A stretch of 64,000 nt of DNA from Dehalococcoidia bacterium (GTDB lineage Bacteria; Chloroflexota; Dehalococcoidia; UBA2979), in contig JADLFF010000037.1 in the NCBI GenBank assembly GCA_020845735.1, positions 2,615-66,614 on the forward strand, read 5' to 3'. The stretch's first letter is position 1. Each line of letters starts with the position of its first letter. The notes under the pieces were generated by a model that saw nothing but the letters and a program-made list of their open reading frames with translations, ran no database searches and was not told the DNA's origin. Position numbers and translations under genes: made by a program. Below are positions 5,693 through 20,499 of the stretch, one piece after another.

Positions 5693-6799
5693 CTAGTACT
5701 TTGCGAGTCGCTCTAACGTTCGTCGGTACCTGTTGATGAACTCCGGAATCGCCTCGTCGCCGTTGTAGAACGCCAGGGAATCTACGCCGTCCCTTTCGGC
5801 GAGGTGTAATTCGCCGCGAATCCAGCGCACAACTGTCCGATCGAGCTCATCGCCATCGTTTCTCGCTCCGGCGACAGCTAGGTACTGGCCTCGTCTAATC
5901 GCGATGCTGTTCCCGGCGCGTTGCTCGAACGAACACCCATGCTCAGCGAGGACCCGGCGCAAGTCGCGCCACCGTATTCGGCGCTCTTCCCTTCTGATTG
6001 GCCGGCTGTGCCGGAGAATCCAGCGCGCAGATGCGAGCATCTCGGCGTCGCCCAGTGTGCTGTCTGCGATGTCGTGTTGTGCGAGAGCGAATGCGTGATC
6101 GAACAGATCGTCCTCTTCGGCGATCAAAACGTGATCATTCATGTCCAGGAACACGAGCAGTGACACAATGGCCGTCCGCTTGTTTCCGTTGACGAACGGG
6201 TGATCTTGGATCAGGGCGCCCAATAGCGCCGCCCCGGCCATCGGTGTCGTCGGGTACTTAAGGAGGCCACCCAGGGATGTGTGCGGCCGGCCAACCGCCG
6301 ACTCGAGGAGCTCGCCCCGATCCCGGGTTCCAGCGGGCTCGATAGGATCGGCACTACGTGCGAAATCCTCAACCAACTTGAAGTGAATACCTAGGACGGT
6401 GGCGGCGTCCATGTAGACGAGGTCGGTCGCGACTTGCCCGACGACTTCGACCGGGTCGCGCTCGACGCCGTCGCGGGGCTTTGGTGGAGAAACCACCGTC
6501 GACGGGATCGGACCAGAAGCGGAAGCAACCTCGGGGCGGTTGCGGTCGAGGCCTGCGTCGCCGCGGAGTCCCAGGGCGATTTCGGCTCGCACGATGGCGC
6601 TCCGCGCGATGAGGTTGTCTGGGGAGGCAGCCGGAACGCCGGCCTGTGTCAGCCGCCACAAGGCCTCGTCTATCCCCATCCCAGCGCGCGCAGCGAAGTG
6701 TCGAATTCTCCGGCCGGAAGACATTGCCCTAGAGTACTTCAGAATCGCCGATTGCTCGTGCCGGATGCGACCGTAAGAGGAGGGCGTCCGGCCAGCCAC
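5693..6799 (-). CDS. Fic/Doc family protein (Doc-type motif) with N- and C-terminal extensions
   Basis: Central HPFVNGNKRTA matches the Doc subfamily Fic motif HxFx(D/N)GNKR. Flanking IGRPHTSLGG...AALLGALIQ resembles the Doc core. 368 aa versus about 126 aa for Doc. GC visibly lower than surroundings. Confidence 0.7.
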   Translation of the reverse strand: MAGRTPSSYGRIRHEQSAILKYSRAMSSGRRIRHFAARAGMGIDEALWRLTQAGVPAASPDNLIARSAIVRAEIALGLRGDAGLDRNRPEVASASGPIPSTVVSPPKPRDGVERDPVEVVGQVATDLVYMDAATVLGIHFKLVEDFARSADPIEPAGTRDRGELLESAVGRPHTSLGGLLKYPTTPMAGAALLGALIQDHPFVNGNKRTAIVSLLVFLDMNDHVLIAEEDDLFDHAFALAQHDIADSTLGDAEMLASARWILRHSRPIRREERRIRWRDLRRVLAEHGCSFEQRAGNSIAIRRGQYLAVAGARNDGDELDRTVVRWIRGELHLAERDGVDSLAFYNGDEAIPEFINRYRRTLERLAKY

Positions 6800-6808: not shown

Positions 6809-7102
6809 TTAGCCGACGCGGGACATCGCCAGGGGTTTGTAGTCGGCCGCCAGCAGGACCTCGTCGGTGTCCGGGATCGGAAGACCCATCCCGAACGCCA
6901 GGAGCAGGATGAGCGCGTCACGGCTCGGCCGTGTGCGCTCCCCTGAAAACAGCCGCGACACGTAGCTCTCGTCGAGCCAGGCATCACGGGCGATCTCTGC
7001 CTGCGACTTGTTGCATCGCTCCCGGTACCCCTGCAACGCCACAGTGAGTGGGTTAAAGGGAGCGGCGGAGTGCATGCTTCGGTAGATCACAGTCGCCTCC
7101 AT
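6809..7102 (-). CDS. XRE-family helix-turn-helix protein (putative antitoxin/regulator of the Fic/Doc gene)
   Basis: CNKSQAEIARDAWLDESYVSRLFSGERTRPSRDALILLLAFGM is an HTH_XRE-like helix-turn-helix. Ends 10 nt upstream of the Fic/Doc start on the same strand. Confidence 0.6.
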   Translation of the reverse strand: MEATVIYRSMHSAAPFNPLTVALQGYRERCNKSQAEIARDAWLDESYVSRLFSGERTRPSRDALILLLAFGMGLPIPDTDEVLLAADYKPLAMSRVG

Positions 7103-7409: not shown

Positions 7410-7439
7410 TTGAAATGCGTATACCACTTATCATATAAT
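7410..7439 (+). promoter_or_regulatory. Near-consensus sigma70-type promoter TTGAAA-N18-TATAAT (leaderless transcript predicted)
   Basis: TTGAAA at 7410–7415 and TATAAT at 7434–7439, in an AT-rich island inside 70%-GC DNA. The -10 box overlaps the first ATG (7438); the second in-frame ATG (7453) lies about 7–8 nt past the predicted transcription start. Confidence 0.45.
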
Positions 7440-7452
7440 GGCGAGGTCGAGC

Positions 7453-8337
7453 ATGAAGTCCATCGCCATCACCCAACACAATTCAGCCCTCTCGATCACG
7501 CCGGCTGACGACTACATCCTGAAAGTCCTGCTGCGGTTCCGCTATCTGGCGGCCCGCCAGGTCTGCGCATTGCGCTACTCGGCGGGCTCGCTCACGCGCG
7601 TTCAGGCCATCCTCAAGCGGCTCACCGACTCCGGATACCTGCAGCGCATCTGGTTGCCGCGGCGCACACCGCGCGGGAGCGCGCCATCCGTCTACACGCT
7701 CGCACGCAAGGGCCTCAACTACCTGCGCGCCCAGGGGATTGACGTGCCGGCGCGCTACCACCCATCGGAACAGCGCGAGCGTACGTACCTCTTCCTTGCC
7801 CACACCCTCGCGGTGAACGATGTGCTCATCGCTGCCGAGCTCTTCTGCCGGCGGGAGCCGCGCTACGCGCTCGCCGCGAGTGTGCCTGAGCATCTGCTCA
7901 AACGCAGTCCAGCGCGGGTAGAGGACGAGGCCGGGCGCCCGATCACGGTCATCCCCGACGGCTGGATCGACCTTCGCGTTGACGGCGCCTACCAGATTTG
8001 CCTCGTCCTCGAGCTCGACCGTGGCACTGAAGAACAGAAGGCGTGGCGGAGGAAGGTGCGCGGCCTCCTCGCGTACGCCAACGGCCCCTACCAGGAGGCG
8101 TTTCAGACGCGGTCGCTGACGATCGCGGTCGTCACCACGGACGGGCCGCGCCGGCTCCTCGACCTCTTGCGCTGGACGGAACGGGAGTTGACCGCGGTGC
8201 GGGAGCAGGAGCGGGGCGACCTCTTCATCTTCACGGAGATCGTGCCCGAGGCGATCTTCCCGCATGTGCTGTTCACGAGCCCAATCTGGTACCGACCGTT
8301 CGCGAGCGACGAGATCGCGCTGGTCGACCTCCAATAG
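7453..8337 (+). CDS. Replication-relaxation family protein (plasmid/conjugative-element wHTH protein)
   Basis: N-terminal winged-helix-like region (LKVLLRFRYLAARQVCAL...LKRLTDSGYLQR) and a C-terminal region typical of Replic_Relax proteins. Track start is 7438; ATG 7453 is preferred because of the promoter geometry. Confidence 0.55.
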   Translation: MKSIAITQHNSALSITPADDYILKVLLRFRYLAARQVCALRYSAGSLTRVQAILKRLTDSGYLQRIWLPRRTPRGSAPSVYTLARKGLNYLRAQGIDVPARYHPSEQRERTYLFLAHTLAVNDVLIAAELFCRREPRYALAASVPEHLLKRSPARVEDEAGRPITVIPDGWIDLRVDGAYQICLVLELDRGTEEQKAWRRKVRGLLAYANGPYQEAFQTRSLTIAVVTTDGPRRLLDLLRWTERELTAVREQERGDLFIFTEIVPEAIFPHVLFTSPIWYRPFASDEIALVDLQ

Positions 8338-8341
8338 TCCT

Positions 8342-9775
8342 ATGCAACTGCCCTGGCGGCATCGCGGCCCGAGGCTCGACCTCGGGACGCACGGCGCCGC
8401 CTTCTTTCCACGCACGCTCGCGCTCGGCGCGGAGCACGTCGCGGCGCACAAGCACGTGATCGGACTGACCGGCCAGGGGAAGAGCAAGTTCCTCGCGAGT
8501 ATGTTCGTGCAGCTCGTGCGGCAGGGTGTCGGCTGCACGCTCATCGACCCGCACGCGGACCTCGCCACCGACATCCTGGCGCTGCTGCACGACGACGGAC
8601 TGTTCTCAAGGTCGACCTTTGCTGATCGACTGCTGTACGTCGACTTCGCCCGCCGTGACCGCTTCCTGCCATTCAACGTCCTGAGCCAGCCGTACGACGA
8701 CCACACCGCGGCGCGCAACGTGGTCGAGGCCTGTAAGCGTGCCTGGCCGGCGCTCGCCGACGGTTCGGCGCCCCAGTTCGAGAACATCCTCCTCGCGGGC
8801 GCGCTCGTGCTGATTCAAAACCAGCTTCCATTGACGGCGCTGCCGCGACTCCTCACGGACAAGCTGCATCGCGACTCGCTGCTCGAGCGCGTCTCCGACG
8901 AGGCGGTGGTGGACTTCTTCCGCGGGCGGTTCGATCACTGGGGGCGCGACGCACCGCTAATGATCGAGTCGACGCTGCGCCGGGTCTTCCTCCTGTCCTT
9001 CAGTCCCTCGCTTCGCCACTCGCTCGGGCAGCGCGAGAACGCGCTCAACTTCCGCGCGCTGATGGACCAGGGGGTGAGCGTCATCTTCAACCTCGGTGGC
9101 CTCGACGAGGACACTCAGCGCCTGCTGGGGTCGCTCGTGACGGTCGGCTACGAAGTGGCCGCGCTCTCGCGTGCCGACACGCCGCTGGCGCAGCGCCGCC
9201 CCCACCACCTGTTCATCGACGAGTTCTCGCAGTTTTCGGCACAGAGCGAAGAGGCGTTCGCGCGCGTCCTCTCGCTCGCCCGCAAGTACGGCCTGTTCCT
9301 CACGCTCGCTCACCAGACCTGGTCACAGGTGAATCGTCGCCTGCAGGGGGCGCTGCAGAACGCCGTCGAGGTGGCGTTCAAGCTCGGGCGCAGCGACGCC
9401 GAGTGGGCGGCTCCCCGCTTCGGCCGCTTCGACCCGTACGCGTTGAAGCACGAGGTCGCGGACCCGGCGCACGTCGAGCGCACACACCCCGTGTACTTCA
9501 ACGTCCAGGAGACGTTCGAGGGGTGGACGCAGGCTCTCACCGACCTCGCTCCGCGCGAGGCGTTCGTGCGTGTCGGCAACGAGACGACGCGATTCCGGTC
9601 GCGCGCCGTCCCCACTCCACGCTGCGGAGCGGAGGAACTGCGGAGCTTGACTGACGCCTATGCCCGACGCCTGCTGCGGCCCGCACCCCTTGCGCCTGGC
9701 GCTCCAGCTCGCCGGCCGAGCGAGACCCGCGCGGCGTTCCGACGCGTCGTCCTCCGACCGGAACCGGGCGTCTGA
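8342..9775 (+). CDS. TrwB/TraD-like (type IV coupling protein-like) AAA ATPase, soluble, paralog 1
   Basis: Walker A HKHVIGLTGQGKSKF followed by LIDPHADL (compare TrwB GATGTGKS...VDPNGDM). Walker B-like HHLFIDEFSQF then ARKYGLFLTLAHQ. No N-terminal TM segment. Track start 8264 overlaps the upstream gene; in-frame ATG 8342 is preferred. Confidence 0.65.
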   Translation: MQLPWRHRGPRLDLGTHGAAFFPRTLALGAEHVAAHKHVIGLTGQGKSKFLASMFVQLVRQGVGCTLIDPHADLATDILALLHDDGLFSRSTFADRLLYVDFARRDRFLPFNVLSQPYDDHTAARNVVEACKRAWPALADGSAPQFENILLAGALVLIQNQLPLTALPRLLTDKLHRDSLLERVSDEAVVDFFRGRFDHWGRDAPLMIESTLRRVFLLSFSPSLRHSLGQRENALNFRALMDQGVSVIFNLGGLDEDTQRLLGSLVTVGYEVAALSRADTPLAQRRPHHLFIDEFSQFSAQSEEAFARVLSLARKYGLFLTLAHQTWSQVNRRLQGALQNAVEVAFKLGRSDAEWAAPRFGRFDPYALKHEVADPAHVERTHPVYFNVQETFEGWTQALTDLAPREAFVRVGNETTRFRSRAVPTPRCGAEELRSLTDAYARRLLRPAPLAPGAPARRPSETRAAFRRVVLRPEPGV

Positions 9776-9783
9776 TGGTGCCC

Positions 9784-9840
9784 GGGACGGTCATGGGCCC
9801 GAGCGCAGCGAGCCGGGGGCGGGGAGGCCTTGACCGTCCC
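9784..9840 (+). terminator. GC-rich hairpin (9-bp stem GGGACGGTC/GACCGTCCC, long loop) just after the stop of the T4CP-like gene
   Basis: Inverted repeat read directly from the sequence. No U-tract, as is common in high-GC actinobacteria. Confidence 0.3.
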
Positions 9841-9922
9841 CGTCCGGATTACCCTCTTTCTCGGGTGGGGAAGGCAAGACGCTGGCCGCACCCCACCGTT
9901 CCCTGCGAGCCCCGGGGCGCTC

Positions 9923-9953
9923 GATTTGGTATACTGCATATACATTTGTTGGT
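9923..9953 (+). promoter_or_regulatory. AT-rich promoter/operator-like island (TTTGGTATACTGCATATACATTTGTTGGTATGG) immediately upstream of ORF 9954
   Basis: Striking AT-rich 31-mer in GC-rich DNA. Contains TATACT (-10-like), the GTATAC palindrome and the repeated half-sites TTGGTAT. Confidence 0.4.
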
Positions 9954-10466
9954 ATGGAACGGGACCCTGAAGATCATCCGCGACCGAGCGAGCGCTCGGA
10001 ACTGATCGCTTCTCAAGAGCGGGCGCTGACCGTGGCGGTGGTCATGCTGCTCGACGCGCTCGACCGCTGCGGGGGCCACGAGGCCGGCTGTCCCGAGTGC
10101 GGCCCGGCACGGGCACTCGCCTTTGAGACGCTCGCCTCCAGTCCGGGGCTGACTACCGCGCAGGAGCGGAAACCCGAACGTCTGCAGATCCGCGGGCGCG
10201 CGGGGGCGGCACCGGCTTTTGGGAGCACCCGGCGTGGCGCGGCAGTGGCGCGCTTCCCGCTTGCCGTGCACGACCAGACGGGTACGACGACGTGGCACAC
10301 CGTGGTGGCGTTCGGGGATCGAGCCGAGCGGCTGCGCGGCGCGGTCGGACGTGGAGATGCGCTCGAGGTCGTGGGCTACTTCCATGAGCGAGCCGTCCGC
10401 GCGCGCGGGGGTCGGCCCCGCCAGGTCCGTGAGCTCTACGCGGCGGCGGTGCGGCCGCTAGTGTGA
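9954..10466 (+). CDS. Hypothetical protein with C-terminal SSB-like OB-fold (ssDNA-binding-like)
   Basis: C-terminal ARFPLAVHDQTGTTTWHTVVAFGDRAERL...GDALEVVGYFHER...RPRQVRELYAAAVRP resembles the SSB core (RFSLAV...WHRVV.FGKLAE...G..V.VEG.L). The N-terminal half has no recognisable domain. Confidence 0.35.
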   Translation: MERDPEDHPRPSERSELIASQERALTVAVVMLLDALDRCGGHEAGCPECGPARALAFETLASSPGLTTAQERKPERLQIRGRAGAAPAFGSTRRGAAVARFPLAVHDQTGTTTWHTVVAFGDRAERLRGAVGRGDALEVVGYFHERAVRARGGRPRQVRELYAAAVRPLV

Positions 10467-10469
10467 CCG

Positions 10470-11138
10470 ATTGGTGCCCGTCAGGCACCGCCATCGTTCG
10501 CGACCGAGCGATCGGCCCGGCGGTGCTGTTCGCGACCGTCGCCACACCCGGAACGGGTGCCCGCGCGGAGCGCCTCTTCCTGCCTGCCGAGGGGGTCAAG
10601 GGGGAATCGGCAGGTGGTCGGCCCCCCGCCGGGGGGTGCCCTCTCGCCGCCGCGATGGCAGCACGTCGGATGAGTACAAACAGTGCTCAGTGGAGAGACA
10701 ACGTGGATGCAGAGGCGAGAGGGCGGGGGGAGTGGGCGGCAACGCCGCAGGCGTTAGGAGCGAGCTCCGGGCTGCCCACTCCCCCCGCCCGCAGGGCACC
10801 ATCCGAGGCCCAGCCTCGGACATCCCCCTTGCTTCTGTCCGTCAGGACCATCCGGCGGGTCGCGCCGACTAGGGTGTCGACTTCTAGTCGAGACTCTAGT
10901 CGGTCGGGGGGCGGTTCGGTGTTCCCCGCAACCTCCCTTCTCCTCTTGCTTTTGCATTGTCCCGGCTGGGTCTTCTTTCAATGAGTATGTTTCGTCTGTG
11001 TATTCTTCCGCACCGTCGCACGCGCGGATCAGCCCGTCGTCATCCGCCGATTCGAACCGTGCGGAAGTCGCGATTCCCGACTTCTGGACGTCGTGATTGC
11101 CGACATCTGGATGTCAAGAAATACGACATCAGCCTGGG
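10470..11138. other. About 670-bp non-coding region rich in inverted and direct repeats between convergent genes (candidate oriT / origin / ncRNA locus of the mobile-element-like module)
   Basis: 17-bp perfect stem 10721–10737 / 10774–10790 with a nested hairpin AACGCC-gcag-GGCGTT (10741–10755). Palindrome cluster CCGACTAG...GTCGAC...CTAGTCGG at 10865–10903. Two 16-bp palindromic sites CCGACTTCTGGACGTCG (11078–11093) and CCGACATCTGGATGTC (11100–11115) spaced 22 bp, plus a third half-site at 11123–11130. Track ORFs here are low-complexity and on both strands. Confidence 0.45.
10473..10489 (+). terminator. Stem-loop GGTGCC-cgtca-GGCACC 7 nt after the ssb-like stop
   Basis: Perfect 6-bp GC-rich inverted repeat directly downstream of the TGA at 10464–10466. 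Confidence 0.3.
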
Positions 11139-11489
11139 TCAGCGGTTGGGCGTGCTTTGAACGCGGAAGCGGAGGGTGTAGCGGTTCGTCTTGCCGAGGC
11201 CCAATCGCTTGACCTGCACGAAGCCGGCGCGTTCGAGTTGATGGATGAAGGCGACCACGCTCTGACGGCTCACACCGATGTCGCGCGCGAGGGTCTCTTG
11301 CCCGGGGAAGCAGAAGTCGTTGTGCCAGGCGTAGGAAAGGAACATCGCGTAGGTGAGCTTGGCGCCCATGCTCAGGCTGCTGCTGCGCAGAATGAAGTTC
11401 GGGACCTGAGTGAACCCCTCAGCGAGAACCGGGTCGTGCGCCTCGAGCACGATCGTGCGCTCGCGGAGCAGGTCGCCGATCGACTTCAC
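11139..11489 (-). CDS. Winged helix-turn-helix protein (phage/plasmid replication-initiator RepA_N/DnaD-like HTH)
   Basis: GFTQVPNFILRS...AKLTYAMFLSYAWH...CFPGQETLARDIGVSRQSVVAFIHQLERAGFV is the typical RepA_N-like wHTH pattern. GTG start; GTGA overlap with the upstream gene. Confidence 0.5.
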   Translation of the reverse strand: MKSIGDLLRERTIVLEAHDPVLAEGFTQVPNFILRSSSLSMGAKLTYAMFLSYAWHNDFCFPGQETLARDIGVSRQSVVAFIHQLERAGFVQVKRLGLGKTNRYTLRFRVQSTPNR

Positions 11490-11995
11490 GATCGGCCCTC
11501 CTCGTCGAGCACCTCGGTGGTCGCCGACCCGCGCACGAGCGTGCGGTAGACGACCGACTCTTCCCAGGCGCTCTCACAGTCGGCGCGGAGGAGGTCGAGC
11601 GCAACCTGAACGAGCGCGTTCGCAGTGATCCTGGCGCCGTAGCGCTCCTCCAGCTCGAGCTTGAGGTGGCTCATCCAGCGGGCTTGATCGACGTAGATGT
11701 CGTGGGAGTAGCGACGCGCGCGACGTGGCGTGGTGGCGCTGGGCGTGGCCTGACCCGTTCCAAGCTCCGGGCGTACGGGCGCACCGGCGTTCGGACCCAC
11801 GCCCGCACGAGTGCTCGAGGGTGCGGGCGTTCCAGCGAGCGAGGCAGCACGTCCACGGGTGAGCGTCGAGCCCAGTCTGGGTGCGGGCGAGCCTTCGACT
11901 GCCGGTTCCGTCGGTGATGGCTGGCTGAAGAGCCGTTGTTCGCGTCCCGGCGTCTGCGCGCTGAGCTTGAGGCCGGAGAAAACGCTATCGGACAT
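11486..11995 (-). CDS. Hypothetical protein (start trimmed to MSDSVF, preceded by a GGAGG RBS)
   Basis: The track ORF runs to 12205, but its first 70 residues are R/S-rich shadow sequence. ATG at 11995 has GGAGG 7 nt upstream. No recognisable domain. Confidence 0.3.
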   Translation of the reverse strand: MSDSVFSGLKLSAQTPGREQRLFSQPSPTEPAVEGSPAPRLGSTLTRGRAASLAGTPAPSSTRAGVGPNAGAPVRPELGTGQATPSATTPRRARRYSHDIYVDQARWMSHLKLELEERYGARITANALVQVALDLLRADCESAWEESVVYRTLVRGSATTEVLDEEGRS

Positions 11996-12839
11996 CGGCG
12001 GCCTCCTTCCTCGCGAGGTTCTCGCGTCGATCGTCGGCGACGCTCTGGACGATCGCTCGGCTGACGGTTCGGGATTGCCGGTGGAACGCGAGCAGGAGCG
12101 AATTGTCGGCGAGGATGTTCGCCTCGCGCGGCGTCCCTTCGGACTGCTCGAAGATCGTCGCGACCGCGTCTCGGCTGAACGGATGGTGTCCCCCGCCCGA
12201 GGCAACCTGCCAGCGGAAGCGCAGCATCGCGTGCAGCTCGTCGAGGGACAGCCGCTCGAGCGTGGAGGCCATCACGATCCGGCTGCGGAAGTTCCGCAGC
12301 GCCGGGCGCGCGAGCGTGTTGCGGAGCTCGTCCTGTGCGAAGAGCACGAGCTGCAGAAGCTTGCTGTCGTTCGTCTCGAAGTTGATGAGCTGCCGGAGCA
12401 GTTCGAGGAGTGGGGGGCGTAGGGCCTGCGCCTCGTCAATGATGAGCACGACCGTGCGTCGCTCGGTCGCCGCGGTCGACCACAGGTGGTCCTTCAGCGT
12501 GTCGAGCGTGCCCTTGAAGCTGCGGCTCGTCCTCGGCGTGCCGAGCTCCTGCGCGATCGTGCGCAGCAGGCTGTTGGGTGTGGGGTAGTTCGGGTTGACC
12601 AGCAGCGCGGACAGGAAACCCGCGTCGAGGAACTTCTGGTGGAGCAGGCGCGCGAGCGACGACTTGCCCGTGCCGGTGTCGCCGTGCACGACGGCGAGGC
12701 CCTTGTGCGCCGCCACGACGTACGCCGTCTTCTCAAGGGCGGTGGAGTGCATCGCGGTCAGGAAGAAGTAGCGCGGTGAAGGGACCGTGGAGAACGGTTC
12801 CTCCTTCAGACCGAAGTACGCGAGATGGGGCAAATCCAT
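11985..12839 (-). CDS. ExeA/GspA-like AAA ATPase (AAA_22 family)
   Basis: N-terminus MDLPHLAYFGLKEEPFS matches the ExeA-type YLxHFGLxExPF start. Walker A GDTGTGKSSL, Walker B VLIIDEAQAL. Track start 12953 trimmed to the ATG at 12839. Confidence 0.7.
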   Translation of the reverse strand: MDLPHLAYFGLKEEPFSTVPSPRYFFLTAMHSTALEKTAYVVAAHKGLAVVHGDTGTGKSSLARLLHQKFLDAGFLSALLVNPNYPTPNSLLRTIAQELGTPRTSRSFKGTLDTLKDHLWSTAATERRTVVLIIDEAQALRPPLLELLRQLINFETNDSKLLQLVLFAQDELRNTLARPALRNFRSRIVMASTLERLSLDELHAMLRFRWQVASGGGHHPFSRDAVATIFEQSEGTPREANILADNSLLLAFHRQSRTVSRAIVQSVADDRRENLARKEAADVR

Positions 12840-12922
12840 AGGTGAGGCGCCGAACTTGGGCCAGGTCGCGGAGCGAGGGGCCAGAGTTGGCGCAAATTCA
12901 TTGTATAGCACGGACGTGATGA

Positions 12923-13192
12923 TTGCAAGAAGTCCCGTGCGCCTCGTCCACACGGGGGTGCGCGACTAGATTCGGGGCTGACGGACAGGAGCAGGCCTCG
13001 AACGAGGAGTGGATCTCGCTCTCGGAGGCGGCCGAGCGCAGCGGTCTGAGCACGAGCTACCTTCGGCGGCTCTGCCGGCGGGAGGTCATCTTCGCCCGGA
13101 AGTTCGGGCAAGACTGGCTCACGACCTGGGACGCAGTGGCCGCCTACCTCGGGGACCCCGACAAGCGGAAGCGGGGACCCCGAGCTCGATAG
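12923..13192 (+). CDS. Small helix-turn-helix DNA-binding protein (excisionase/AlpA-like)
   Basis: ISLSEAAERSGLSTSYLRRLCRREVIFARKFGQDWL is an HTH_17/Xis-like pattern. TTG start in track; true start uncertain. Confidence 0.4.
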   Translation: MQEVPCASSTRGCATRFGADGQEQASNEEWISLSEAAERSGLSTSYLRRLCRREVIFARKFGQDWLTTWDAVAAYLGDPDKRKRGPRAR

Positions 13193-13317
13193 CCACCCTT
13201 GTATTTGTTCCGACACCGGACCTAATATACGCGGGCGTTGACGAGAGGAGGGCATCCATGGTCGGGGCCGGTGGTGGCAGCTGAACGGAAGGCGGGCTGG
13301 AGCCCGCCTTCTTCGTG

Positions 13318-13869
13318 CTACCAGTCCCACAGGATCGTGAAACGCTGCCCCAGTCGTGGGGCTTGCTCCGAGTATCCGATGCACTGGCGTCGATCGTCCG
13401 TCCAGGTGGGCGGGACCAGGACTCCTTCAGGTTCGTCGAGCGTCACGACACGCGCGAGCTTGACTGGTCGCTCGGCGGGAAGCAGCACCCCGAGGTCGAG
13501 CGAGTCGGTGGGGTGATAGAGCTCGGCCTCCAGCCACCACTCCGAGGGTGACTCGAATCCGCGCTGAACGAGGCGCTCAATCGTGAACGTGTGCACATCA
13601 CCTGCTCGTTGTCGGGCGGGCAGCGCCACTGTCGAGCGCAGCCGGGGACCGATCAAGTGCCTCGCCGTGAGTTTCCCAGGGTCGACATCGTGGTCCGCAA
13701 AGGCGATCCCGTCGCCCCACCCATAGTCGAAGATTTTGTCCGCATCCTTGAGGAACTCGACCGTCTCGGTTCGTGTGTAACGCGCTCGCTCTCCTGACAG
13801 GTCGAGGAGCTCTACACGCGCTGCATACCGCAACACACGGTAGGTGAAGGATGGTCGCGGTCGGTCCAT
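13318..13869 (-). CDS. Hypothetical protein (183 aa), divergent from the second T4CP-like gene
   Basis: Coding-like composition. No recognisable motif. Confidence 0.3.
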   Translation of the reverse strand: MDRPRPSFTYRVLRYAARVELLDLSGERARYTRTETVEFLKDADKIFDYGWGDGIAFADHDVDPGKLTARHLIGPRLRSTVALPARQRAGDVHTFTIERLVQRGFESPSEWWLEAELYHPTDSLDLGVLLPAERPVKLARVVTLDEPEGVLVPPTWTDDRRQCIGYSEQAPRLGQRFTILWDW

Positions 13870-14012
13870 AGCTCATTTTACCGGTCGCGGTCAGAGCGAT
13901 TTCACTTTGGCGCGCCACGGCGGGCTGCACGGGGCCTTGACAGCCTTCCGAATCGCCTCGGTCCGCCCCGCGATCGCTACGCTCTCGCCGAGACTGTTGT
14001 CCGGGACGAGGG

Positions 14013-16217
14013 ATGCATCCGGTGGCAGACGGCAAGATTGATCTCGGAGTTGAGCTGTTCAATGGAGAACCGGTGCGGCTCGGCCTCCGTGAACGTCAGC
14101 AAGGCACCTACATCCTCGGGAAGCCCGGCACGGGCAAGACGACACTGATAGAGCGCATGGTGCTGCAGGACATCGAAGCCGGGCACGGCGTCTGCGTGCT
14201 CGATCCCCACGGTGACCTCGTCGATGGCGTACTCGTCCAGATCCCAGCGCACCGCGAGCACGATGTGATCCTGCTCGACGCCGCGGACACGGACTTCCCG
14301 TTCGGCCTCAACCTCTTCGAGTGCCGCGACCTCACCGATCGGACTCTCGTCGGCCGAATCGCCGCCCAGGCCGTGGAGGTCTTCGAGAAGCTGTGGGGCG
14401 ATATTTCGTGGGGCCCGCAGCTGGCGCAGACGCTCCGTAACAGCGCCTACACGATGATTGAGAACGTGGGGTACACGCTCCTCGAGGTGCGGCGGCTGCT
14501 ACTTGATGAGGAGTTCCGGGCGCGACTGACGGCGAACCTCACGCTCGGCCAGGTGCGTGAGTTCTGGGAGCTCGAGTACAACCCCCTTCTACGCCGCGAA
14601 CAGCAGCAGCGTGTGAGTTCCACACTGAACAAGATTGATGAGTTCCTCACGCCGGCGGTCTACCCGATCGTGGGGCTCGGACGCACCACCGTCGACTTCC
14701 GGGCCGCAATGGACGCGGGCAAAGTCGTGCTCGTGAAGCTGCCGGTGGGTGTGCTCGGGGGCGATCCGGTCGCGCTGATCGGCTCGATGATCGTCGCGCA
14801 GATATTCAACGCCGCGCTTTCGCGCCAGGAACTCGACCCCGGCGCGCGCCGCCAATTCAATCTGTTCGCCGACGAGTACCACCGATTCGCGACGCCGACC
14901 TTCGCCGAGCTCCTCGCGGAAGCGCGCAAGTACGGCCTCGCTACCTTGCTCGCTCACCAGTTTCGGGACCAGCTCGACGAGCAGAACCGCGGCGCGACGC
15001 TGACCGCGGGGAACCTCCTCGTGTTCGGCGTGGGCGGCGGCGATGCCGAGGAGCTGGCGAAGCAGTTCGACCGCACGCCGCCCCCGCCAGACGTCGTGGG
15101 GCAACGGCCGAAGCTCACCGTGAACCAACGGCCGATCGAGCACCTGGTGAGACACGGACACGACAGCGACTTCGTACGCAGGGCGGTCGCCGCCTGGGTG
15201 CAACCGCTCGCGCATCGGGTGGAGACGATGCCCTCGGGCGGGGTGGCTGCCTCGACGCTACGCGTTCCAATCGAAGGACGCACCTCACCGATCGAGGTGG
15301 AATACGTCGCCGATGGCGGTTCGCTCCGGGCCGGCGCGGCGGCGATCGACGGCTTCTTGGTCAACGTGATGGAGCGGCGACTGAACCTTGGTACTGCGGC
15401 CGAGATCAGCGCGATCGCCCACGTGATTGCGCTCTTGCGAGCGCATATCTGCTTCGCGCCAGAACTGACCTTTTACGACGTTGATTACCCGTCTGTGCTC
15501 TCGGATCCCTCGCTGGAGTTGCCAGAGGCTACATCGCGCGCGCTGCTCGCATTCTTGACAGACTGGCTTCCCGATCGGGCGGCGCACCGGAACGCCGAGA
15601 GTCACACACGCGCGGGCGTTCTCGCACACCCAGCGGCGTCGCGGCTCGTCGAGGCGAGACTCTCTCACCTGAAATGGATCGACCAGCAAGAACAGGGCAT
15701 GGCGGAGTCCGAGGCGCTCAGGAATGCGGGGCCATTCACGACCGATCTCGCTCCGTTCGTCGATGAGGAACGACGAGAACGCGCGAGGGGTCATCCACAC
15801 CGCGCGGGCACCGAAACCTACGCCGCCGCGCGGCTCGCGTGGCAGTTGCACACGCTTGCCCTGGCTCTGCTGCGGGAGCCCATCTTTGTCGACAGCGGTC
15901 AGTGGGAGCCGATCTACGACCGTCCTCGCTCCTACGCGGACGTCGAGGGCGAGATTGCGTCGCGGTTGGTGAACTTACCGAAGTACCAAGCTCGAGGACG
16001 GCTGCTCGTCGACACCAACGTGCGCGAGGTCGACGTACAGACGCCAACCTTCGAGAACAGGCAGGCGACCGAGGAAGGCATCGCGCGCGCCGAGCGAATC
16101 CGAGCTCGCTCCCGGAGGGACTACTGCCTTCCGCTCGCGCGGGTCCTCGAGATCATCGCAGCGCGCGGGCGCGACGATCCACCACAAGAATCGACGCGGC
16201 GACGGGTTCCGATCTAG
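14013..16217 (+). CDS. TrwB/TraD-like (type IV coupling protein-like) AAA ATPase, soluble, paralog 2, with about 350-aa C-terminal extension
   Basis: Walker A YILGKPGTGKTTL then VLDPHGDL. Walker B-like FNLFADEYHRF then ARKYGLATLLAHQF, collinear with paralog 1 (8342–9775). No TM segment. C-terminal 350 aa without recognisable domain. Stop codon abuts the tRNA-like repeat A. Confidence 0.65.
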   Translation: MHPVADGKIDLGVELFNGEPVRLGLRERQQGTYILGKPGTGKTTLIERMVLQDIEAGHGVCVLDPHGDLVDGVLVQIPAHREHDVILLDAADTDFPFGLNLFECRDLTDRTLVGRIAAQAVEVFEKLWGDISWGPQLAQTLRNSAYTMIENVGYTLLEVRRLLLDEEFRARLTANLTLGQVREFWELEYNPLLRREQQQRVSSTLNKIDEFLTPAVYPIVGLGRTTVDFRAAMDAGKVVLVKLPVGVLGGDPVALIGSMIVAQIFNAALSRQELDPGARRQFNLFADEYHRFATPTFAELLAEARKYGLATLLAHQFRDQLDEQNRGATLTAGNLLVFGVGGGDAEELAKQFDRTPPPPDVVGQRPKLTVNQRPIEHLVRHGHDSDFVRRAVAAWVQPLAHRVETMPSGGVAASTLRVPIEGRTSPIEVEYVADGGSLRAGAAAIDGFLVNVMERRLNLGTAAEISAIAHVIALLRAHICFAPELTFYDVDYPSVLSDPSLELPEATSRALLAFLTDWLPDRAAHRNAESHTRAGVLAHPAASRLVEARLSHLKWIDQQEQGMAESEALRNAGPFTTDLAPFVDEERRERARGHPHRAGTETYAAARLAWQLHTLALALLREPIFVDSGQWEPIYDRPRSYADVEGEIASRLVNLPKYQARGRLLVDTNVREVDVQTPTFENRQATEEGIARAERIRARSRRDYCLPLARVLEIIAARGRDDPPQESTRRRVPI

Positions 16218-16272
16218 CCTCGGGAGACTTCTAATCCGAGAGCCGGAGGTTCGAATCCTCCCGGGGGCGCCA
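16217..16272 (+). repeat. 56-nt tRNA-like mini-element, copy A (acceptor-like 5' strand, T-arm GGAGG-TTCGAAT-CCTCC, acceptor 3' strand, G, CCA)
   Basis: GGTTCGAATCC T-loop plus CGGGGGC-G-CCA 3' end. The 5' GCCTCGG can pair with the 3' CGGGGGC (one G-G mismatch). No D-arm or canonical anticodon arm could be folded. About 85% identical to copy B at 20800–20855, with boundaries exactly at nt 1 and CCA. Confidence 0.45.
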
Positions 16273-16276
16273 GTAG

Positions 16277-16486
16277 CTAGAGTGTTAGGACCCGGCGAGC
16301 CCTTGCCAGCGCCTCTTCGAGCGCCGCTGCCTCGCCAGCGATCATGTCAGCTTCTCGCTCGAGTTCGGACCAGAAACGTTCGTGGAAGCTTCGCGCGGTG
16401 TCATCTCGCCAGTGCTCCGTCGCTGTTGCCCACTCCGCCTTGATCCGGCGGGCGTCGTCGGCCAACATCTCGGCCCCCCCTCCCAA
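16277..16486 (-). CDS. Small helical protein (69 aa), last gene of the FtsK/WXG-like operon
   Basis: Start 2 nt after the upstream stop. Helical, charged (AEWATATEHWRDDTARSFHERFWSELEREADMIAGEAAALEEALA). No database-level assignment possible. Confidence 0.35.
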   Translation of the reverse strand: MGGGAEMLADDARRIKAEWATATEHWRDDTARSFHERFWSELEREADMIAGEAAALEEALARARRVLTL

Positions 16487-16488
16487 CG

Positions 16489-17103
16489 TTAGTCCCCCTT
16501 CTCGCCGCGCCCCGATTCTTCGAGGCGCTCCGACGGGTTCGGGACGCGGAACACCGCATCCCGTCCGTATTTCCCTTGGGTGCCAATGCGCTCGCCTAGC
16601 GCCCTCTCGGCGTTGATGGCGCTGGGTGCGGGAACTCCAGCCGTCGTCGACACGACGAACGACTGGTACTGCTCGATGCTGGCCATCCGAGCGAGAAGGC
16701 CGTTCTGCATGGTCGAGATTGCGTGGCTCAGATATTCACGGTGGCGGACGGCACTGGGGCGGAAGAGGCGAGCTGCCTCGTCGACGGCGTTGGCGGCTCC
16801 CTCGACCGCGGCGAGGCGAACACCTGCGCGTTGCACCTCGTGCGCGAGACCGCTGCAGTCGGGGCCCTCTCCTCCTTCGGCCGCCAGGGCCGCTCGGATG
16901 CATGCAGCGTAGGCGGCCTCTGCCCGCGCGAGCACGCCTTGCGCCAGACGCCGAGCCTGCTCAATGTCCGACTTGGTACGGTCTAGATCGTTAATAGCGT
17001 TCCGTAACCCGGCGGTCTGGCGGTCGACGACCGAGAAAAGCTGCTGCCGAAGGCGGTCCAGAGCGCCGTAGGTGACCTCAACCTGGTCAGCCATCCGTCT
17101 CAA
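16489..17103 (-). CDS. Helical protein (204 aa) with WXG100/LXG-like N-terminal region, candidate secreted substrate/effector
   Basis: ATGA-type overlap with the upstream gene. N-terminus MADQVEVTYGALDRLRQQLFSV has the WXG100/LXG-style start (x-I-x-V-x-Y-x-x-L). The remainder is helical with a distinct C-terminal tail. Confidence 0.4.
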   Translation of the reverse strand: MRRMADQVEVTYGALDRLRQQLFSVVDRQTAGLRNAINDLDRTKSDIEQARRLAQGVLARAEAAYAACIRAALAAEGGEGPDCSGLAHEVQRAGVRLAAVEGAANAVDEAARLFRPSAVRHREYLSHAISTMQNGLLARMASIEQYQSFVVSTTAGVPAPSAINAERALGERIGTQGKYGRDAVFRVPNPSERLEESGRGEKGD

Positions 17104-17375
17104 GCCTCGAGGAACGCGCGTAGGCGTTCGATGAGTCGGAGGAGATGGCTTTCGTGGTCGTCGGTAACGGCGAGATAGCGTTCGATCCCCTTCCCGACTT
17201 CCTCTAGCGCCGTACCGAATTCCGCATACTTCTGGTCGGTCCAGGTTCCTCCGAGGTTCCGCCAGTCGGCGACCATGCCCCTGTACTCGGCCTCGAGCGT
17301 GTCATCGAAACGAATCAGATGGTTGCGAAAGTCGATGAGCGCTTGGACGCTCCCCACGCCAACGCGGTCACTCAT
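17100..17375 (-). CDS. WXG100-like small helical protein (91 aa)
   Basis: Trimmed from track ORF 17100..17612 to the ATG at 17375 (GAAGGAGA RBS 5 nt upstream; ATGAGTGA overlap with the FtsK-like stop). Helix-turn-helix hairpin layout with central DWRNLGGTWTDQKYAEF. About 90–100 aa, the size of ESAT-6-like proteins. Confidence 0.4.
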   Translation of the reverse strand: MSDRVGVGSVQALIDFRNHLIRFDDTLEAEYRGMVADWRNLGGTWTDQKYAEFGTALEEVGKGIERYLAVTDDHESHLLRLIERLRAFLEA

Positions 17376-20300: not shown

Positions 20301-20499
20301 CGTTTTGGCCGAGGATCGCGCTGACGACTGAGATCAGGACACCGTCGATGATGTGACCGATCGCACGAGCCCAAAAGCCAGCGTAGACGCGGTCAGTCGG
20401 CGTCGCCGTTGATGGACGCACGTTCTGAGCTGCGCCGCAATGCGTGCAGAACGCCGCGCCTGCGGCAACCTCACGACTACAACTCGGGCAAGACGCCAT
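17368..20499 (-). CDS. FtsK/SpoIIIE-family ATPase with three P-loop domains (EccC/EssC-like) fused to N-terminal zinc-ribbon + RDD membrane domain
   Basis: N-terminus: CPSCSREVAAGAAFCTHCGA (Zn-ribbon), then an RDD pattern (YAGFWARAIGHIIDGVL...GQTLGHMLVGVRLVD...RTWHDSLSGTWAV). Domain 2 has canonical Walker A GGMVGSGKTNLLL and Walker B LLLVVDEFQVL. Domains 1 (VGAGQGLS) and 3 are degenerate, as in EccC D2/D3. Confidence 0.75.
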   Translation of the reverse strand: MASCPSCSREVAAGAAFCTHCGAAQNVRPSTATPTDRVYAGFWARAIGHIIDGVLISVVSAILGQNDQARQLISNVVFVAYFWFFWARGQTLGHMLVGVRLVDSEGNRPGAGRALGRLLASFLSLLSLGLGYVWAAWHPEKRTWHDSLSGTWAVEAKGGVRVAAPPPAVIAAVQDPAVAGRKQPDRTLMSSAIQLTQLGRHEEAVAAFEEMVRMLGGGAPPIIRVMLDALAGDPLRHGVTARIGAIDFQNDLGPLAVFFLLSQRHLGIDGGPAAYRDDLLRATVFQLVTGSASGAIRLTLIDPVGAGQGLSAFLSLPPAIRGERVLTSSNEIERELETLARECEDVLQTRLGARFSTIHEYNAANPALAQPHRLVAILRLPAGGWTERALDLLARLARNGPRAGFHVVATLDPAAPMPRDMKLADAFRPWGRLEVNEVGVVHLPGALLGDFPLVPSKIPDAATVESALDGVRAAFGRPRALDSSDVLVPIDWAASTADGLSVPIGMALEGESTSFHLGTGTIHNALVGGMVGSGKTNLLLLLIDQLASRYSPDELGLYLLDLKEGVSFVDYLALPHARAVTQATDREFALSVLRDLRAQIEARGSRFREAGASQYTEFRARGGTMPRLLLVVDEFQVLVSDEDQLGREAGAILEDLVRRGRGFGIHVLLASQTPAGVSGYLTRVYEQMPLRVAFKSSDATSTAILGDGNVAASRLEEPGEAILNEDFGHTAANHRIRVALLPGDEHRARVTAIADRDGGAHPPPATFEGTTPASLTGNPRLQELRIGAWRPDPDTAEAFLGEPVEVKGPTAARFERFPRNNLLIAGPDELDAYGLLEAVVVSLALEQPDAAFYVLDFARTGPLSSVMAALQQRIPNQVSVAGPREAGSALGAALEDLDARLAASDATRGPRYLVVTGLQRWRELRGPDAYQQTPEATSLLRLADEGPDQGWHVIAWTDGLTAVERVLGRQGTSRFDLRASLRVPEADSNSLFDSPVASRLADNRALFRHEEWALGRTEKFKPYRLLGAAGLNDLLPAEGDAHE

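What the first reader, a model, noticed from the sequence alone, without database searches (positions are those of the whole stretch)
7410..16217. Mobile-element-like module with conjugation/replication genes but no recognisable integrase or relaxase
The module contains a replication-relaxation protein, two T4CP-like ATPases, an SSB-like ORF, a RepA_N-like wHTH, an ExeA-like AAA ATPase and an Xis-like HTH.
- This looks like a degraded or unconventional conjugative/mobilisable element.
- It is inserted next to a Type I R-M and a Doc/Fic pair, and it ends at the tRNA-like repeat.
- Missing are a tyrosine/serine recombinase, a MOB relaxase and the type IV secretion channel genes.
- It may therefore depend on helper functions, or it may be a satellite-type element.
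Basis: inference. Interest (0 to 1): 0.6.

Follow-up and report, generated by a model that had tools for sequence, protein, structure and literature searches.

The report
Mobilizable genomic island with MOBC relaxase
This is the right-hand part of a tRNA-integrated mobile island from a Chloroflexota bacterium. It has its own DNA-nicking enzyme and two DNA-pumping ATPases but no secretion channel, so it most likely moves between cells using another element's conjugation machinery. That is a known type of element, here in a little-studied phylum with some unusual details.

Summary
They form a conserved, non-degraded set of ten core genes, and I found this set in at least nine distinct elements from Chloroflexota MAGs.

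Two of the three reported absences do not hold.
- **Relaxase:** the replication-relaxation protein (PF13814) belongs to the family that CONJscan scores as the MOBC relaxase.
- **Integrase:** the window cuts the element on its left, because the HsdR ORF runs off base 1. Six of eight relatives with enough left flank have tRNA → tyrosine integrase → defence cargo → XRE → relaxase.
- **Type IV secretion channel:** this absence is real.

The Type I R-M system and Fic are therefore most likely cargo inside the element, not neighbours. The repeat at 16217–16273 is a tRNA-Arg(TCT) 3′ half and matches the attR seen in relatives.

Both ATPases are paralogous T4CP-like motors without a membrane anchor. 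Homologous T4CP + relaxase pairs sit in true T4SS clusters on an Embleya plasmid.

Best reading: an integrative mobilizable element (confidence 0.55). A T4SS-independent self-transfer route is not excluded.

One addition: a ~330-nt conserved non-coding element (10578–10905) with covariation-supported structure and no Rfam match.

Novelty: new variant of a known kind. Interest 0.45.

The parts
1..5662 (+). Type I R-M cargo: HsdR (ORF open from base 1 to 2748), HsdS 2745-4184, HsdM 4181-5662. Probably inside the element.
   Evidence: Pfam hits. The HsdR frame is open to the window edge. GC is 0.64-0.66, like the module and unlike the 0.70+ seen after 21 kb. Relatives carry McrBC plus a methylase at the same position.
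5693..6799 (-). Fic-domain protein, directly downstream of the XRE gene (cargo).
   Evidence: PF02661, E 9e-12. The same arrangement appears in Logan contigs L005-L008.
6809..7102 (-). XRE-family HTH regulator, a conserved core gene divergent from the relaxase operon.
   Evidence: HTH_31/HTH_3. Orthologues are 67-75% identical in L010, L009 and L020-L024.
7410..7439 (+). Near-consensus sigma-70-type promoter (TTGAAA-18-TATAAT) in front of the relaxase operon.
   Evidence: 11 of 12 matches. The TATCATATAATGG motif is conserved in most of the aligned relatives (L010, L019, L020, L023, L024).
7453..8337 (+). Replication-relaxation protein: wHTH plus PD-(D/E)XK nuclease, MOBC-type putative relaxase.
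   Evidence: PF13814 at 75.5 bits. Invariant D169, E187 and D189 in 49 homologues. PF13814 equals CONJscan MobC. Assigned to the PD-(D/E)XK fold. PHROG 'replication initiation by nicking'.
8342..9775 (+). ATPase 1: T4CP-like nucleotide-binding domain without a membrane anchor. It is the most conserved core protein.
   Evidence: 29% identical to ATPase 2, E 1e-29. Matches the NBD of Embleya T4CP and Haur_5107. 67-80% identical to orthologues. No N-terminal hydrophobic segment.
9954..10466 (+). SSB-like protein (OB fold at residues 76-167).
   Evidence: PF00436, E 1.7e-10. Orthologues about 52% identical.
10578..10905 (+). Conserved structured non-coding element: a three-way junction plus a hairpin whose loop pairs downstream (pseudoknot). 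Candidate ncRNA or single-strand origin.
   Evidence: 70-80% nucleotide identity to seven or more elements. 96% of cells paired, 13 pairs changed on both sides, covariation 0.168 against 0.04-0.06 for slid controls. z-score -8.6 on + and -6.3 on -. No Rfam family.
10940..11135 (.). Relatively AT-rich stretch followed by repeated CGAC(A/T)TCTGGA(C/T)GTC palindromes. Origin-like or operator-like region next to the HTH_36 gene.
   Evidence: Sequence. Conserved columns 560-720 of alignment A3. The function is inferred.
11139..11489 (-). HTH_36 winged-helix protein, replication-initiator-like.
   Evidence: PF13730, E 4.6e-11. PHROG replication initiation / DnaD-like loader families. 67-78% identical to orthologues.
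11486..11995 (-). Protein X: conserved N-terminal FSGLKL..DQRLF peptide, disordered linker, and a C-terminal domain that looks ribbon-helix-helix-like.
   Evidence: Orthologue alignment A6. No Pfam or PDB match. The RHH reading is inference from the sequence pattern.
11985..12839 (-). ExeA/MuB-like AAA_22 ATPase, first gene of the AAA_22-X-HTH_36 operon. A promoter-like site lies at 12928-12900.
   Evidence: PF13401, E 9e-26; TIGR03015, E 4e-53. phrog_296, E 5.5e-26. 72-83% identical to orthologues. Promoter scan.
13013..13192 (+). Excisionase-like HTH (HTH_17 type).
   Evidence: 66% identical to the L010 HTH_17 protein. PHROG excisionase, E 4e-9.
13318..13869 (-). Protein Y: conserved all-beta protein of unknown role, divergent from ATPase 2.
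   Evidence: Orthologues 28-57% identical. AF2 model pLDDT 76, a beta-sandwich. Only generic fold matches.
14013..16217 (+). ATPase 2: T4CP-like NBD (residues 1-355) plus a 380-residue C-terminal domain, with no membrane anchor.
   Evidence: Profile hits DotL 1e-10 and TrwB 5e-6. AF2 pLDDT 91. Foldseek hits HerA, TrwB, DotL and Cag-beta, with TM 0.54-0.58 to TrwB. The ORF cannot extend upstream.
16217..16273 (+). attR-like direct repeat. Positions 16228-16272 are the 3' half of a tRNA-Arg(TCT), from the anticodon loop to CCA.
   Evidence: Repeat family D1. Weak tRNA-model match to the T arm and acceptor. The analogous attR in L001 matches the tRNA-Lys at attL in L010.
16274..20856 (.). Second low-GC segment closed by the second repeat copy (20800-20856). 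It holds WXG-like small ORFs and a Zn-ribbon/RDD/FtsK-SpoIIIE protein (17368-20499, -). It is not part of the conserved element and is probably an accreted remnant.
   Evidence: There are no homologues of these genes in any related locus.

Best explanation
The module is the conserved core of an integrative mobilizable element (IME) family of Chloroflexota, and the window cuts it at its left end.

**Proposed steps (shown = supported by results here; inferred = not tested)**
1. The element sits in the 3' half of a tRNA gene, here tRNA-Arg(TCT). The repeat at 16217-16273 is attR. The tRNA and a tyrosine integrase lie left of base 1. *Inferred for this copy, shown for relatives.*
2. An XRE repressor controls a near-consensus promoter that drives the relaxase-ATPase 1 operon. 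*Inferred.*
3. Integrase plus the Xis-like HTH excise a circle. *Inferred.*
4. The circle is maintained or replicated by the HTH_36 initiator-like protein, protein X, the AAA_22 ATPase and SSB. They would act on the origin-like non-coding region at 10.5-11.1 kb. *Inferred.*
5. The PD-(D/E)XK Replic_Relax protein (MOBC type) nicks an unidentified oriT. *Family assignment shown, activity inferred.*
6. The two soluble T4CP-like ATPases couple the nucleoprotein to a type IV secretion channel supplied by a co-resident conjugative element, because the island encodes no membrane or channel protein. *Inferred.*
7. The R-M and Fic genes are cargo.
For: - **Core conservation.** All ten core genes are syntenic at 30-80% amino-acid identity in L009, L010, L018-L021, L024 and others.
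- **Integration in relatives.** L010 has an intact tRNA-Lys, then the integrase, and the tRNA 3' half is repeated at the far end in L001. L009 has tRNA-Gln followed by the integrase. Six of eight relatives with enough left flank show this layout.
- **Relaxase family.** PF13814 scores 75.5 bits. Coluzzi et al. 2017 report that PF13814 proteins are scored as MobC by CONJscan and sit next to a VirD4 coupling protein in streptococcal IMEs.
- **Coupling-protein affinity.** ATPase 2 hits DotL at 1e-10 and TrwB at 5e-6, and its fold matches agree.
- **Conjugative context of homologues.** A homologous T4CP sits directly next to a Replic_Relax gene, within a cluster with PrgI, an ATP-binding protein and NlpC/P60, on an Embleya plasmid. 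A homologue sits next to a VirB4-like gene on the Chloroflexota plasmid pHAU01.
- **No channel genes.** No T4SS or membrane proteins occur in the core or in the complete ~23-kb relative.
- **Foreign composition.** GC is low from base 1 to about 20.9 kb.
Against: - The integrase and the intact tRNA were not seen for this copy. The left flank could not be retrieved.
- Two relatives (L018, L020) show no integrase within 9 kb.
- Both T4CP-like proteins lack the N-terminal membrane anchor that canonical coupling proteins use to dock on a T4SS.
- No oriT was identified.
- No helper T4SS is known for this organism.
- The window relaxase has no BLAST-level similarity to the Embleya Replic_Relax and no plasmid homologue at E 1e-5.
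- No transfer has been shown for any member.
Confidence: 0.55

Rival explanations
1. T4SS-independent self-transfer. The two soluble T4CP/HerA-family motors and the PD-(D/E)XK nuclease together form a minimal DNA-donation machine. This would resemble ICEth1 of Thermus, where the TdtA ATPase and nucleases push DNA out and the recipient's competence system takes it up. It would also resemble actinomycete TraB-type transfer. No helper is needed.
For: - ICEth1 is a tRNA-integrated 14.9-kb element with a recombinase, a HerA/FtsK-family hexameric ATPase and nucleases, and no T4SS or relaxase.
- The ATPase-relaxase-ATPase trio is kept even in distant relatives, including cultured Kitasatospora, in compact elements without visible T4SS genes.
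- The ATPases lack the anchor needed for classical T4SS docking.
- Foldseek scores HerA as high as TrwB.
Against: - No membrane protein is encoded in the core, so nothing explains how DNA would cross the envelope.
- The closest annotated homologues of ATPase 2 are coupling proteins inside genuine T4SS clusters.
- SSB and, in one relative, ArdC-N and a Toprim primase fit classical single-strand conjugative transfer.
Confidence: 0.17
2. An immobile or decaying remnant: an integrated plasmid-like replicon or defence island that keeps conjugation-derived genes but no longer moves.
For: - No integrase is visible in the window.
- L018 lacks both XRE and integrase beside the relaxase.
- A partial tRNA copy and a second repeat suggest old, eroded insertions.
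- The cargo is dominated by defence genes.
Against: - All core ORFs are intact.
- The set is conserved in order and sequence across elements at different tRNA sites, which requires recent mobility and purifying selection.
- A near-consensus promoter is retained.
- The window edge explains the missing integrase.
Confidence: 0.13
3. A virus-like or satellite element whose FtsK/HerA-family ATPases package DNA into particles or vesicles. This would parallel the Dehalococcoides IME1 elements now proposed to be filamentous or budding viruses.
For: - IME1 elements of Dehalococcoidia were long called IMEs and carry an FtsK-family pI-like ATPase.
- Several core proteins match PHROG families for replication and excision.
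Against: - The gene content differs from IME1: there is no pI-like/Zot ATPase, no small transmembrane proteins and no primase-helicase.
- No relative of the relaxase exists in 2.9 million IMG/VR contigs.
- No capsid, terminase or morphogenesis gene is present.
Confidence: 0.05
4. An ATPase-nuclease anti-phage defence system rather than a transfer module.
For: There are weak PADLOC matches of the ATPases to mad8, HerA and DndH models. Defence genes lie nearby.
Against: - The matches are generic P-loop similarities.
- The set co-occurs with an integrase, Xis, SSB, replication-type proteins and att repeats.
- It varies in its defence cargo, which is how a vehicle behaves, not a cargo.
Confidence: 0.04

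Closest known systems
Streptococcal IME class 8 (Coluzzi et al. 2017, PMC5357655): MobC/PF13814 relaxase + VirD4 coupling protein + integrase
   Same: An integrated element with a compact mobilization module. It pairs a PF13814 relaxase with an adjacent coupling-protein-type ATPase and has no T4SS.
   Different: - The streptococcal elements use a serine integrase and a canonical, membrane-anchored VirD4.
- Here the relatives use a tyrosine integrase at tRNA genes.
- There are two anchor-less T4CP paralogues.
- There is an extra AAA_22/X/HTH_36/SSB module.
- The host phylum is Chloroflexota.
MOBC relaxases (TraX of pAD1, MobC of CloDF13; Francia et al. 2013, cited in PMC5365140 ref. 32)
   Same: A PD-(D/E)XK, restriction-endonuclease-like nuclease family that is used as a conjugative relaxase. 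The acidic motif is invariant.
   Different: There is no detectable pairwise similarity to plasmid members. Nicking, oriT and any covalent intermediate are untested.
Gram-positive-type T4SS clusters with T4CP + Replic_Relax (Embleya plasmid NZ_CP108778; Herpetosiphon pHAU01)
   Same: The T4CP NBD is homologous to both window ATPases at 27-32% identity. In Embleya it sits next to a Replic_Relax gene.
   Different: Those clusters also encode PrgI, VirB4-like and NlpC/P60 proteins. Their T4CPs carry a 390-430-residue N-terminal region with hydrophobic segments. The window element has none of these.
ICEth1 / TdtA transjugation element of Thermus thermophilus (PMC5365140)
   Same: A small tRNA-integrated element flanked by tRNA 3'-end repeats. 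It has low GC, a recombinase, a HerA/FtsK-superfamily ATPase plus nucleases, R-M genes and no T4SS.
   Different: ICEth1 uses a NurA nuclease and a type IIG enzyme, and has no Replic_Relax, SSB or replication module. No sequence relationship was tested or seen.
IME1 of Dehalococcoides (bioRxiv 10.64898/2026.09.15.751708)
   Same: A 21-28-kb element of Dehalococcoidia with a tyrosine recombinase at the 5' end and an FtsK-family ATPase. It occurs both integrated and episomal.
   Different: The conserved genes are different: a pI-like ATPase, transmembrane structural proteins, a serine resolvase and a primase-helicase. It is not the same family.

Membership tests
Integrative mobilizable element (IME) | Site-specific recombinase with flanking att repeats | tested here: inconclusive
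   The repeat is present at 16217-16273. No integrase is in the window, but the element runs off the window edge. Six of eight relatives carry a tRNA-adjacent tyrosine integrase.
Integrative mobilizable element (IME) | Own relaxase (or oriT) but no complete mating-pair-formation system | tested here: met
   A PF13814 relaxase-family protein is present. No VirB4, PrgI or NlpC homologues are found in the window, and none appear in the complete gene list of the L010/L001 element.
Integrative mobilizable element (IME) | Excision and helper-dependent transfer demonstrated | not testable with these tools
   This needs junction reads or PCR, and mating assays.
MOBC relaxase family | Match to the family model (Pfam PF13814 / CONJscan MOBC) | tested here: met
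   PF13814 scores 75.5 bits against a cut-off of 25.3. The CONJscan profile itself was not available. The equivalence is taken from Coluzzi et al. 2017.
MOBC relaxase family | PD-(D/E)XK catalytic acidic residues conserved | tested here: met
   D169, E187 and D189 are invariant, and R190, T192, E194, Q195 are nearly so, in 49 homologues. Fold assignment comes from Steczkiewicz et al. 2012.
MOBC relaxase family | Site-specific nicking at a cognate oriT | not testable with these tools
   No oriT was identified. The conserved non-coding region at 10578-11135 is only a candidate.
VirD4/TrwB-type coupling protein (T4CP) | FtsK/HerA-superfamily NBD specifically similar to TrwB/DotL | tested here: met
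   - Profile search: DotL 1e-10, TrwB 4.8e-6.
- Foldseek: TrwB TM 0.54-0.58, but HerA scores equally well.
- TrwB_AAD_bind: 29.8 bits against 20.5 for ATPase 2. For ATPase 1 it is 19.7, below the cut-off.
VirD4/TrwB-type coupling protein (T4CP) | N-terminal transmembrane anchor | tested here: not met
   The Walker A motif lies at residues 36-43 of ATPase 2, and the ORF cannot extend upstream. Neither ATPase has an N-terminal hydrophobic segment, whereas Haur_5107 and the Embleya T4CP do. They are therefore called T4CP-like, not T4CP.
VirD4/TrwB-type coupling protein (T4CP) | Encoded with or acting on a T4SS | tested here: not met
   There is no T4SS in the element or the window. Action on a helper T4SS cannot be tested.
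Integrative conjugative element with T4SS (ICE) | VirB4-family ATPase and channel proteins | tested here: not met
Actinomycete-type ICE (AICE, TraB/FtsK dsDNA transfer) | Membrane-anchored FtsK/SpoIIIE translocase as a conserved element gene | tested here: not met
   The FtsK-SpoIIIE/RDD gene at 17368-20499 lies outside the repeat at 16217-16273. It has no homologue in any of about 30 related loci.
Dehalococcoides IME1 (virus-like) | pI-like ATPase, small transmembrane structural proteins, primase-helicase | tested here: not met
   The core has no transmembrane proteins and a different gene set. No relatives occur in IMG/VR.
Any Rfam RNA family (for the 10578-10905 element) | Covariance-model match | tested here: not met
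   No hit at gathering score. Only chance-level hairpin matches appear at E up to 10.

The most novel reading that the evidence does not exclude
The family is a self-sufficient, T4SS-independent DNA-transfer system of Chloroflexota, with relatives in actinomycetes. A PD-(D/E)XK nickase and two soluble T4CP-like motors would export DNA without any dedicated channel. The ~330-nt conserved pseudoknotted element would be an essential new ncRNA or single-strand origin of that system.
Probability: 0.15. Interest if true: 0.8.

Novelty: new variant of a known kind. Interest (0 to 1): 0.45.

Why it matters
Conjugative and mobilizable elements of Chloroflexota have hardly been described; my literature search found only the unrelated IME1 family. 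This family offers several things:
- It gives a defined, recurrent vehicle for defence genes such as R-M, McrBC, Fic, PIN and STAND.
- It targets tRNA genes.
- It pairs a MOBC-type nuclease with duplicated coupling-protein motors that have lost the membrane anchor. That raises a testable question about how such motors reach a secretion channel, or whether they need one at all.
- It carries a strongly structured non-coding element with no known family.
- Relatives exist in cultured Kitasatospora strains, so experiments are feasible.

Tried and rejected
- **Retrieving the left flank of the contig.** Exact-protein look-ups for Replic_Relax, HsdR and ATPase 2 failed. The HsdS look-up gave only 3-kb Logan contigs. 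A 22-mer scan of genome contigs found nothing.
- **The repeat as a real tRNA or tmRNA.** ARAGORN and Rfam find none. Only the T arm and acceptor match. The acceptor 3' strand cannot give the G3:U70 pair of a tmRNA. Rejected.
- **The FtsK/RDD protein as the element's translocase.** It is not conserved with the family. Rejected.
- **AAA_22 as part of a Mu/Tn7-type transposon.** No DDE transposase is present and the flanking ORFs are not transposase fragments. Rejected.
- **Protein Y.** A homologue search gave 4 sequences. The AF2 model is a beta-sandwich matching only the generic N-domains of M1 aminopeptidases and an OST subunit. Uninformative.
- **Protein X.** No Pfam or PDB profile hit.
- **Relaxase against plasmids.** No hit.
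- **Building a covariance model of the 330-nt element.** Not attempted because of the calibration time limit. nhmmer was used instead.
- **Metagenome scan with the invariant stem pattern.** Only 3 extra copies were found.

Full report
**Source and setting.** The window comes from a 102.7-kb contig of a Dehalococcoidia (Chloroflexota) MAG; the ATPase 2 and relaxase proteins match NCBI entries at 100%. GC is 0.64-0.67 from base 1 to about 20.9 kb and 0.70-0.75 afterwards. The module therefore lies inside a compositionally foreign tract of at least 21 kb that begins at or before the window edge. No tRNA gene is predicted in the window.

**Observation check.**
- Replic_Relax (PF13814, 75.5 bits) at 7453-8337.
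- A 477-aa ATPase at 8342-9775 with weak DUF87, TraG-D_C and TrwB_AAD_bind matches.
- An SSB-domain protein at 9954-10466.
- An HTH_36 winged helix at 11139-11489 (-).
- An ExeA/MuB-like AAA_22 ATPase at 11985-12839 (-).
- A 734-aa T4CP-like ATPase at 14013-16217.
- The Xis-like HTH at 13013-13192 (+). It is 66% identical to an HTH_17 protein of a related element and matches a PHROG excisionase family.
- A 57-nt direct repeat that starts exactly at the stop codon of ATPase 2 (16217-16273) and recurs at 20800-20856.

Left of the module lie a Type I R-M system, a Fic protein and an XRE regulator.

**The repeat.** From the anticodon loop (CTTCTAA, anticodon TCT) through the T arm to the acceptor strand and CCA, both copies read as the 3' half of a tRNA-Arg. 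The sequence upstream of the loop cannot form an anticodon stem, so neither copy is a gene. The two copies differ by compensatory changes in the T stem (GGAGG/CCTCC versus CCAGG/CCTGG). This fits two different tRNA-derived att sequences rather than a simple duplication.

**Comparative evidence.** Homologues of ATPase 2 and of the relaxase led to contigs that carry the same gene set. tblastn with the window proteins gave the following identities:

| Core protein | Identity to orthologues |
|---|---|
| XRE | 56-75% |
| Relaxase | 54-70% |
| ATPase 1 | 67-80% |
| Xis | 44-66% |
| AAA_22 | 72-83% |
| X | 36-52% |
| HTH_36 | 36-78% |
| SSB | 35-58% |
| Y | 28-57% |
| ATPase 2 | 50-58% |

These orthologues occur in at least nine distinct elements. 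The block from SSB to AAA_22 is inverted in some of them.

In L010/L001 the element is complete.
- It starts with an intact tRNA-Lys(TTT) followed by a tyrosine integrase.
- Next come McrBC and methylase cargo, XRE, and the core.
- A STAND NTPase cargo follows.
- It ends with a repeat of the tRNA-Lys 3' half running from the anticodon loop to 24 nt past CCA, about 23 kb in all.
- A second, diverged copy of the repeat lies 2 kb further on.

In L009 the order is tRNA-Gln(TTG), integrase, XRE and core, and the cargo includes ArdC-N, a Toprim primase and a Dcm methylase. L019, L021 and L023 also start with tRNA-Lys plus integrase. L024 has a partial tRNA-Lys before its integrase. L018 and L020 show no integrase within 9 kb.

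1. *Integrase.* The HsdR reading frame is open to base 1 of the window, so the island continues to the left. In relatives the integrase and tRNA sit at that end, separated from XRE by defence cargo. The absence is most likely a window-edge effect. I could not retrieve the flank, so this stays inferred for this copy.
2. *Relaxase.* PF13814 proteins are PD-(D/E)XK nucleases with an N-terminal HTH. Coluzzi et al. 2017 report that CONJscan scores them as the MobC relaxase superfamily, and that in streptococcal IMEs they sit next to a VirD4 coupling protein. The acidic motif (D169, E187, D189) is invariant in 49 homologues. The family is large, with 4,757 50%-identity cluster representatives at E ≤ 1e-3.
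3. *T4SS.* This absence is real. No VirB4, PrgI or NlpC homologue occurs in the window, no core protein has a transmembrane segment, and the complete relative has none either.

**The two ATPases.**
- They are paralogues: 29% identity over 372 residues, E 1e-29.
- A profile of ATPase 2 homologues finds the coupling proteins DotL (1e-10) and TrwB (4.8e-6) as its best solved relatives.
- The AF2 model (pLDDT 91) matches HerA, TrwB, DotL, Cag-beta and VirB4 domains.
- Both ATPases align to the C-terminal NBD of an 812-aa T4CP on an Embleya plasmid. There it lies between an ATP-binding protein and a Replic_Relax gene, in a cluster with PrgI and NlpC/P60.
- Both also align to Haur_5107, which sits next to a VirB4-like gene on Herpetosiphon plasmid pHAU01.
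- Those proteins have N-terminal hydrophobic segments and the window proteins have none. I therefore call the window proteins T4CP-like, not T4CPs.
- In distant relatives, including three cultured Kitasatospora strains, the order ATPase 2-like, relaxase, ATPase 1-like is kept. One of these elements ends in a serine recombinase.

**Other core parts.**
- A near-consensus promoter (11/12) at 7410-7439 precedes the relaxase operon, and its -10 region is conserved in most relatives examined.
- AAA_22, X and HTH_36 overlap start to stop and have their own promoter-like site.
- HTH_36 matches phage replication-initiator and DnaD-like families. AAA_22 matches the MuB-like PHROG.
- X has a conserved N-terminal peptide, a disordered linker and a C-terminal pattern that I read as ribbon-helix-helix. 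This is inference, with no database hit.
- Y is a beta-sandwich with no informative match.

**A conserved structured non-coding element.**
- The 670-nt gap between SSB and HTH_36 is 70-80% identical in nucleotides across elements. That is as high as the best proteins, and the indels break the reading frame.
- nhmmer finds it in eleven distinct copies, all in the close clade.
- The proposed structure has a hairpin with seven covarying pairs. Its invariant loop (GAGGRGG-TCAAGGGGGAA) pairs with TCCCCCTTG-YCTCC about 240 nt downstream. Between them sits a three-way junction of near-invariant G+C helices.
- On ten sequences this structure is 96% paired, with 13 pairs changed on both sides. Its covariation score is 0.168, against 0.04-0.06 when partners are slid.
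- G-U pairs and folding energies favour the + strand (z -8.6 against -6.3).
- No Rfam family matches, and no promoter or terminator consensus was found.
- An AT-richer stretch and repeated 14-bp palindromes follow it, next to the HTH_36 gene.
- I regard this region as the likely origin (oriV and/or oriT, or a single-strand origin), or as a new ncRNA. Which one is undecided.

**Rivals.**
- *T4SS-independent transfer.* This would resemble ICEth1 of Thermus: tRNA-integrated, with a recombinase, a HerA/FtsK-type ATPase and nucleases, and no T4SS. It is the most interesting alternative, and the anchor-less motors fit it. However, nothing in the element explains envelope passage, and the homologues sit in true T4SS clusters.
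- *A decayed remnant.* The intact, conserved gene set at several tRNA sites contradicts this.
- *A virus-like element.* The recently described Dehalococcoides IME1 has a different gene set, and the relaxase has no relative in IMG/VR.
- *A defence system.* Support is limited to generic P-loop matches.

**Verdict.** The best reading is an integrative mobilizable element that carries the following:
- a MOBC-type relaxase;
- two anchor-less coupling-protein-like ATPases;
- a replication/maintenance module;
- an Xis and an XRE switch;
- defence cargo.

It is integrated at a tRNA-Arg and cut by the window edge. It is a new variant of a known kind, in an under-explored phylum, and it carries an unclassified structured non-coding element.

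Noticed in passing
window 10578-10905 (+); also L010 15234-15558 (-), L018 14212-14534, L020, L021, L019, L048-L050: A ~330-nt non-coding element as conserved as the best proteins. It has a covariation-supported multi-helix structure and a long-range loop pairing. No Rfam family matches. It could be an ncRNA or a single-strand origin.
   Followed up: partly
window 11078-11132: Two 14-bp palindromes, CGAC(A/T)TCTGGA(C/T)GTC, 24 nt apart, plus a half-site. An AT-richer stretch (10940-11010) precedes them. The region is conserved in relatives and looks iteron-like or operator-like.
   Followed up: partly
window 16274-20856: A low-GC segment between the two tRNA-half repeats. It holds a Zn-ribbon/RDD/FtsK-SpoIIIE protein (EccC/EssC-like ATPase domain) and three small WXG-like ORFs. 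This looks like a type VII-like secretion module acting as a separate accreted piece. It is absent from all related loci.
   Followed up: partly
window 52495-55676: A second low-GC patch (0.62) with an IS1595-family transposase and a fused N6/N4 methylase-Mrr-like restriction protein.
   Followed up: no
L001 18110-18200 and 20170-20240; L024 5925-5995: Related elements also end in two successive tRNA 3'-half repeats, or begin after a partial tRNA. Tandem accretion at the same tRNA site seems common in this family.
   Followed up: partly
L018 1-9316: In one close relative, the relaxase is preceded by copper/cytochrome genes and about 700 nt without ORFs. There is no XRE and no integrase. This is either a truncated copy or a different left-end organisation.
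   Followed up: no
L031, L032, L034 (Kitasatospora sp. NPDC strains): Cultured actinomycetes carry a compact relative: SSB, an ATPase 2-like protein, the relaxase, an ATPase 1-like protein, a TIR-like protein and AAA_22. It ends in a large serine recombinase and sits in a lower-GC3 tract. This could serve as an experimental model.
   Followed up: partly
window 10866-10896: A conserved hairpin, GTCGA-CTTCTAG-TCGAG, whose 7-nt loop resembles the tRNA-Arg(TCT) anticodon loop found in the att repeat. The same hairpin occurs in elements that use tRNA-Lys, so the resemblance is probably coincidental.
   Followed up: no
window 9954-10178: The SSB ORF has a 75-residue N-terminal extension without SSB similarity. 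The real start may be further downstream.
   Followed up: no
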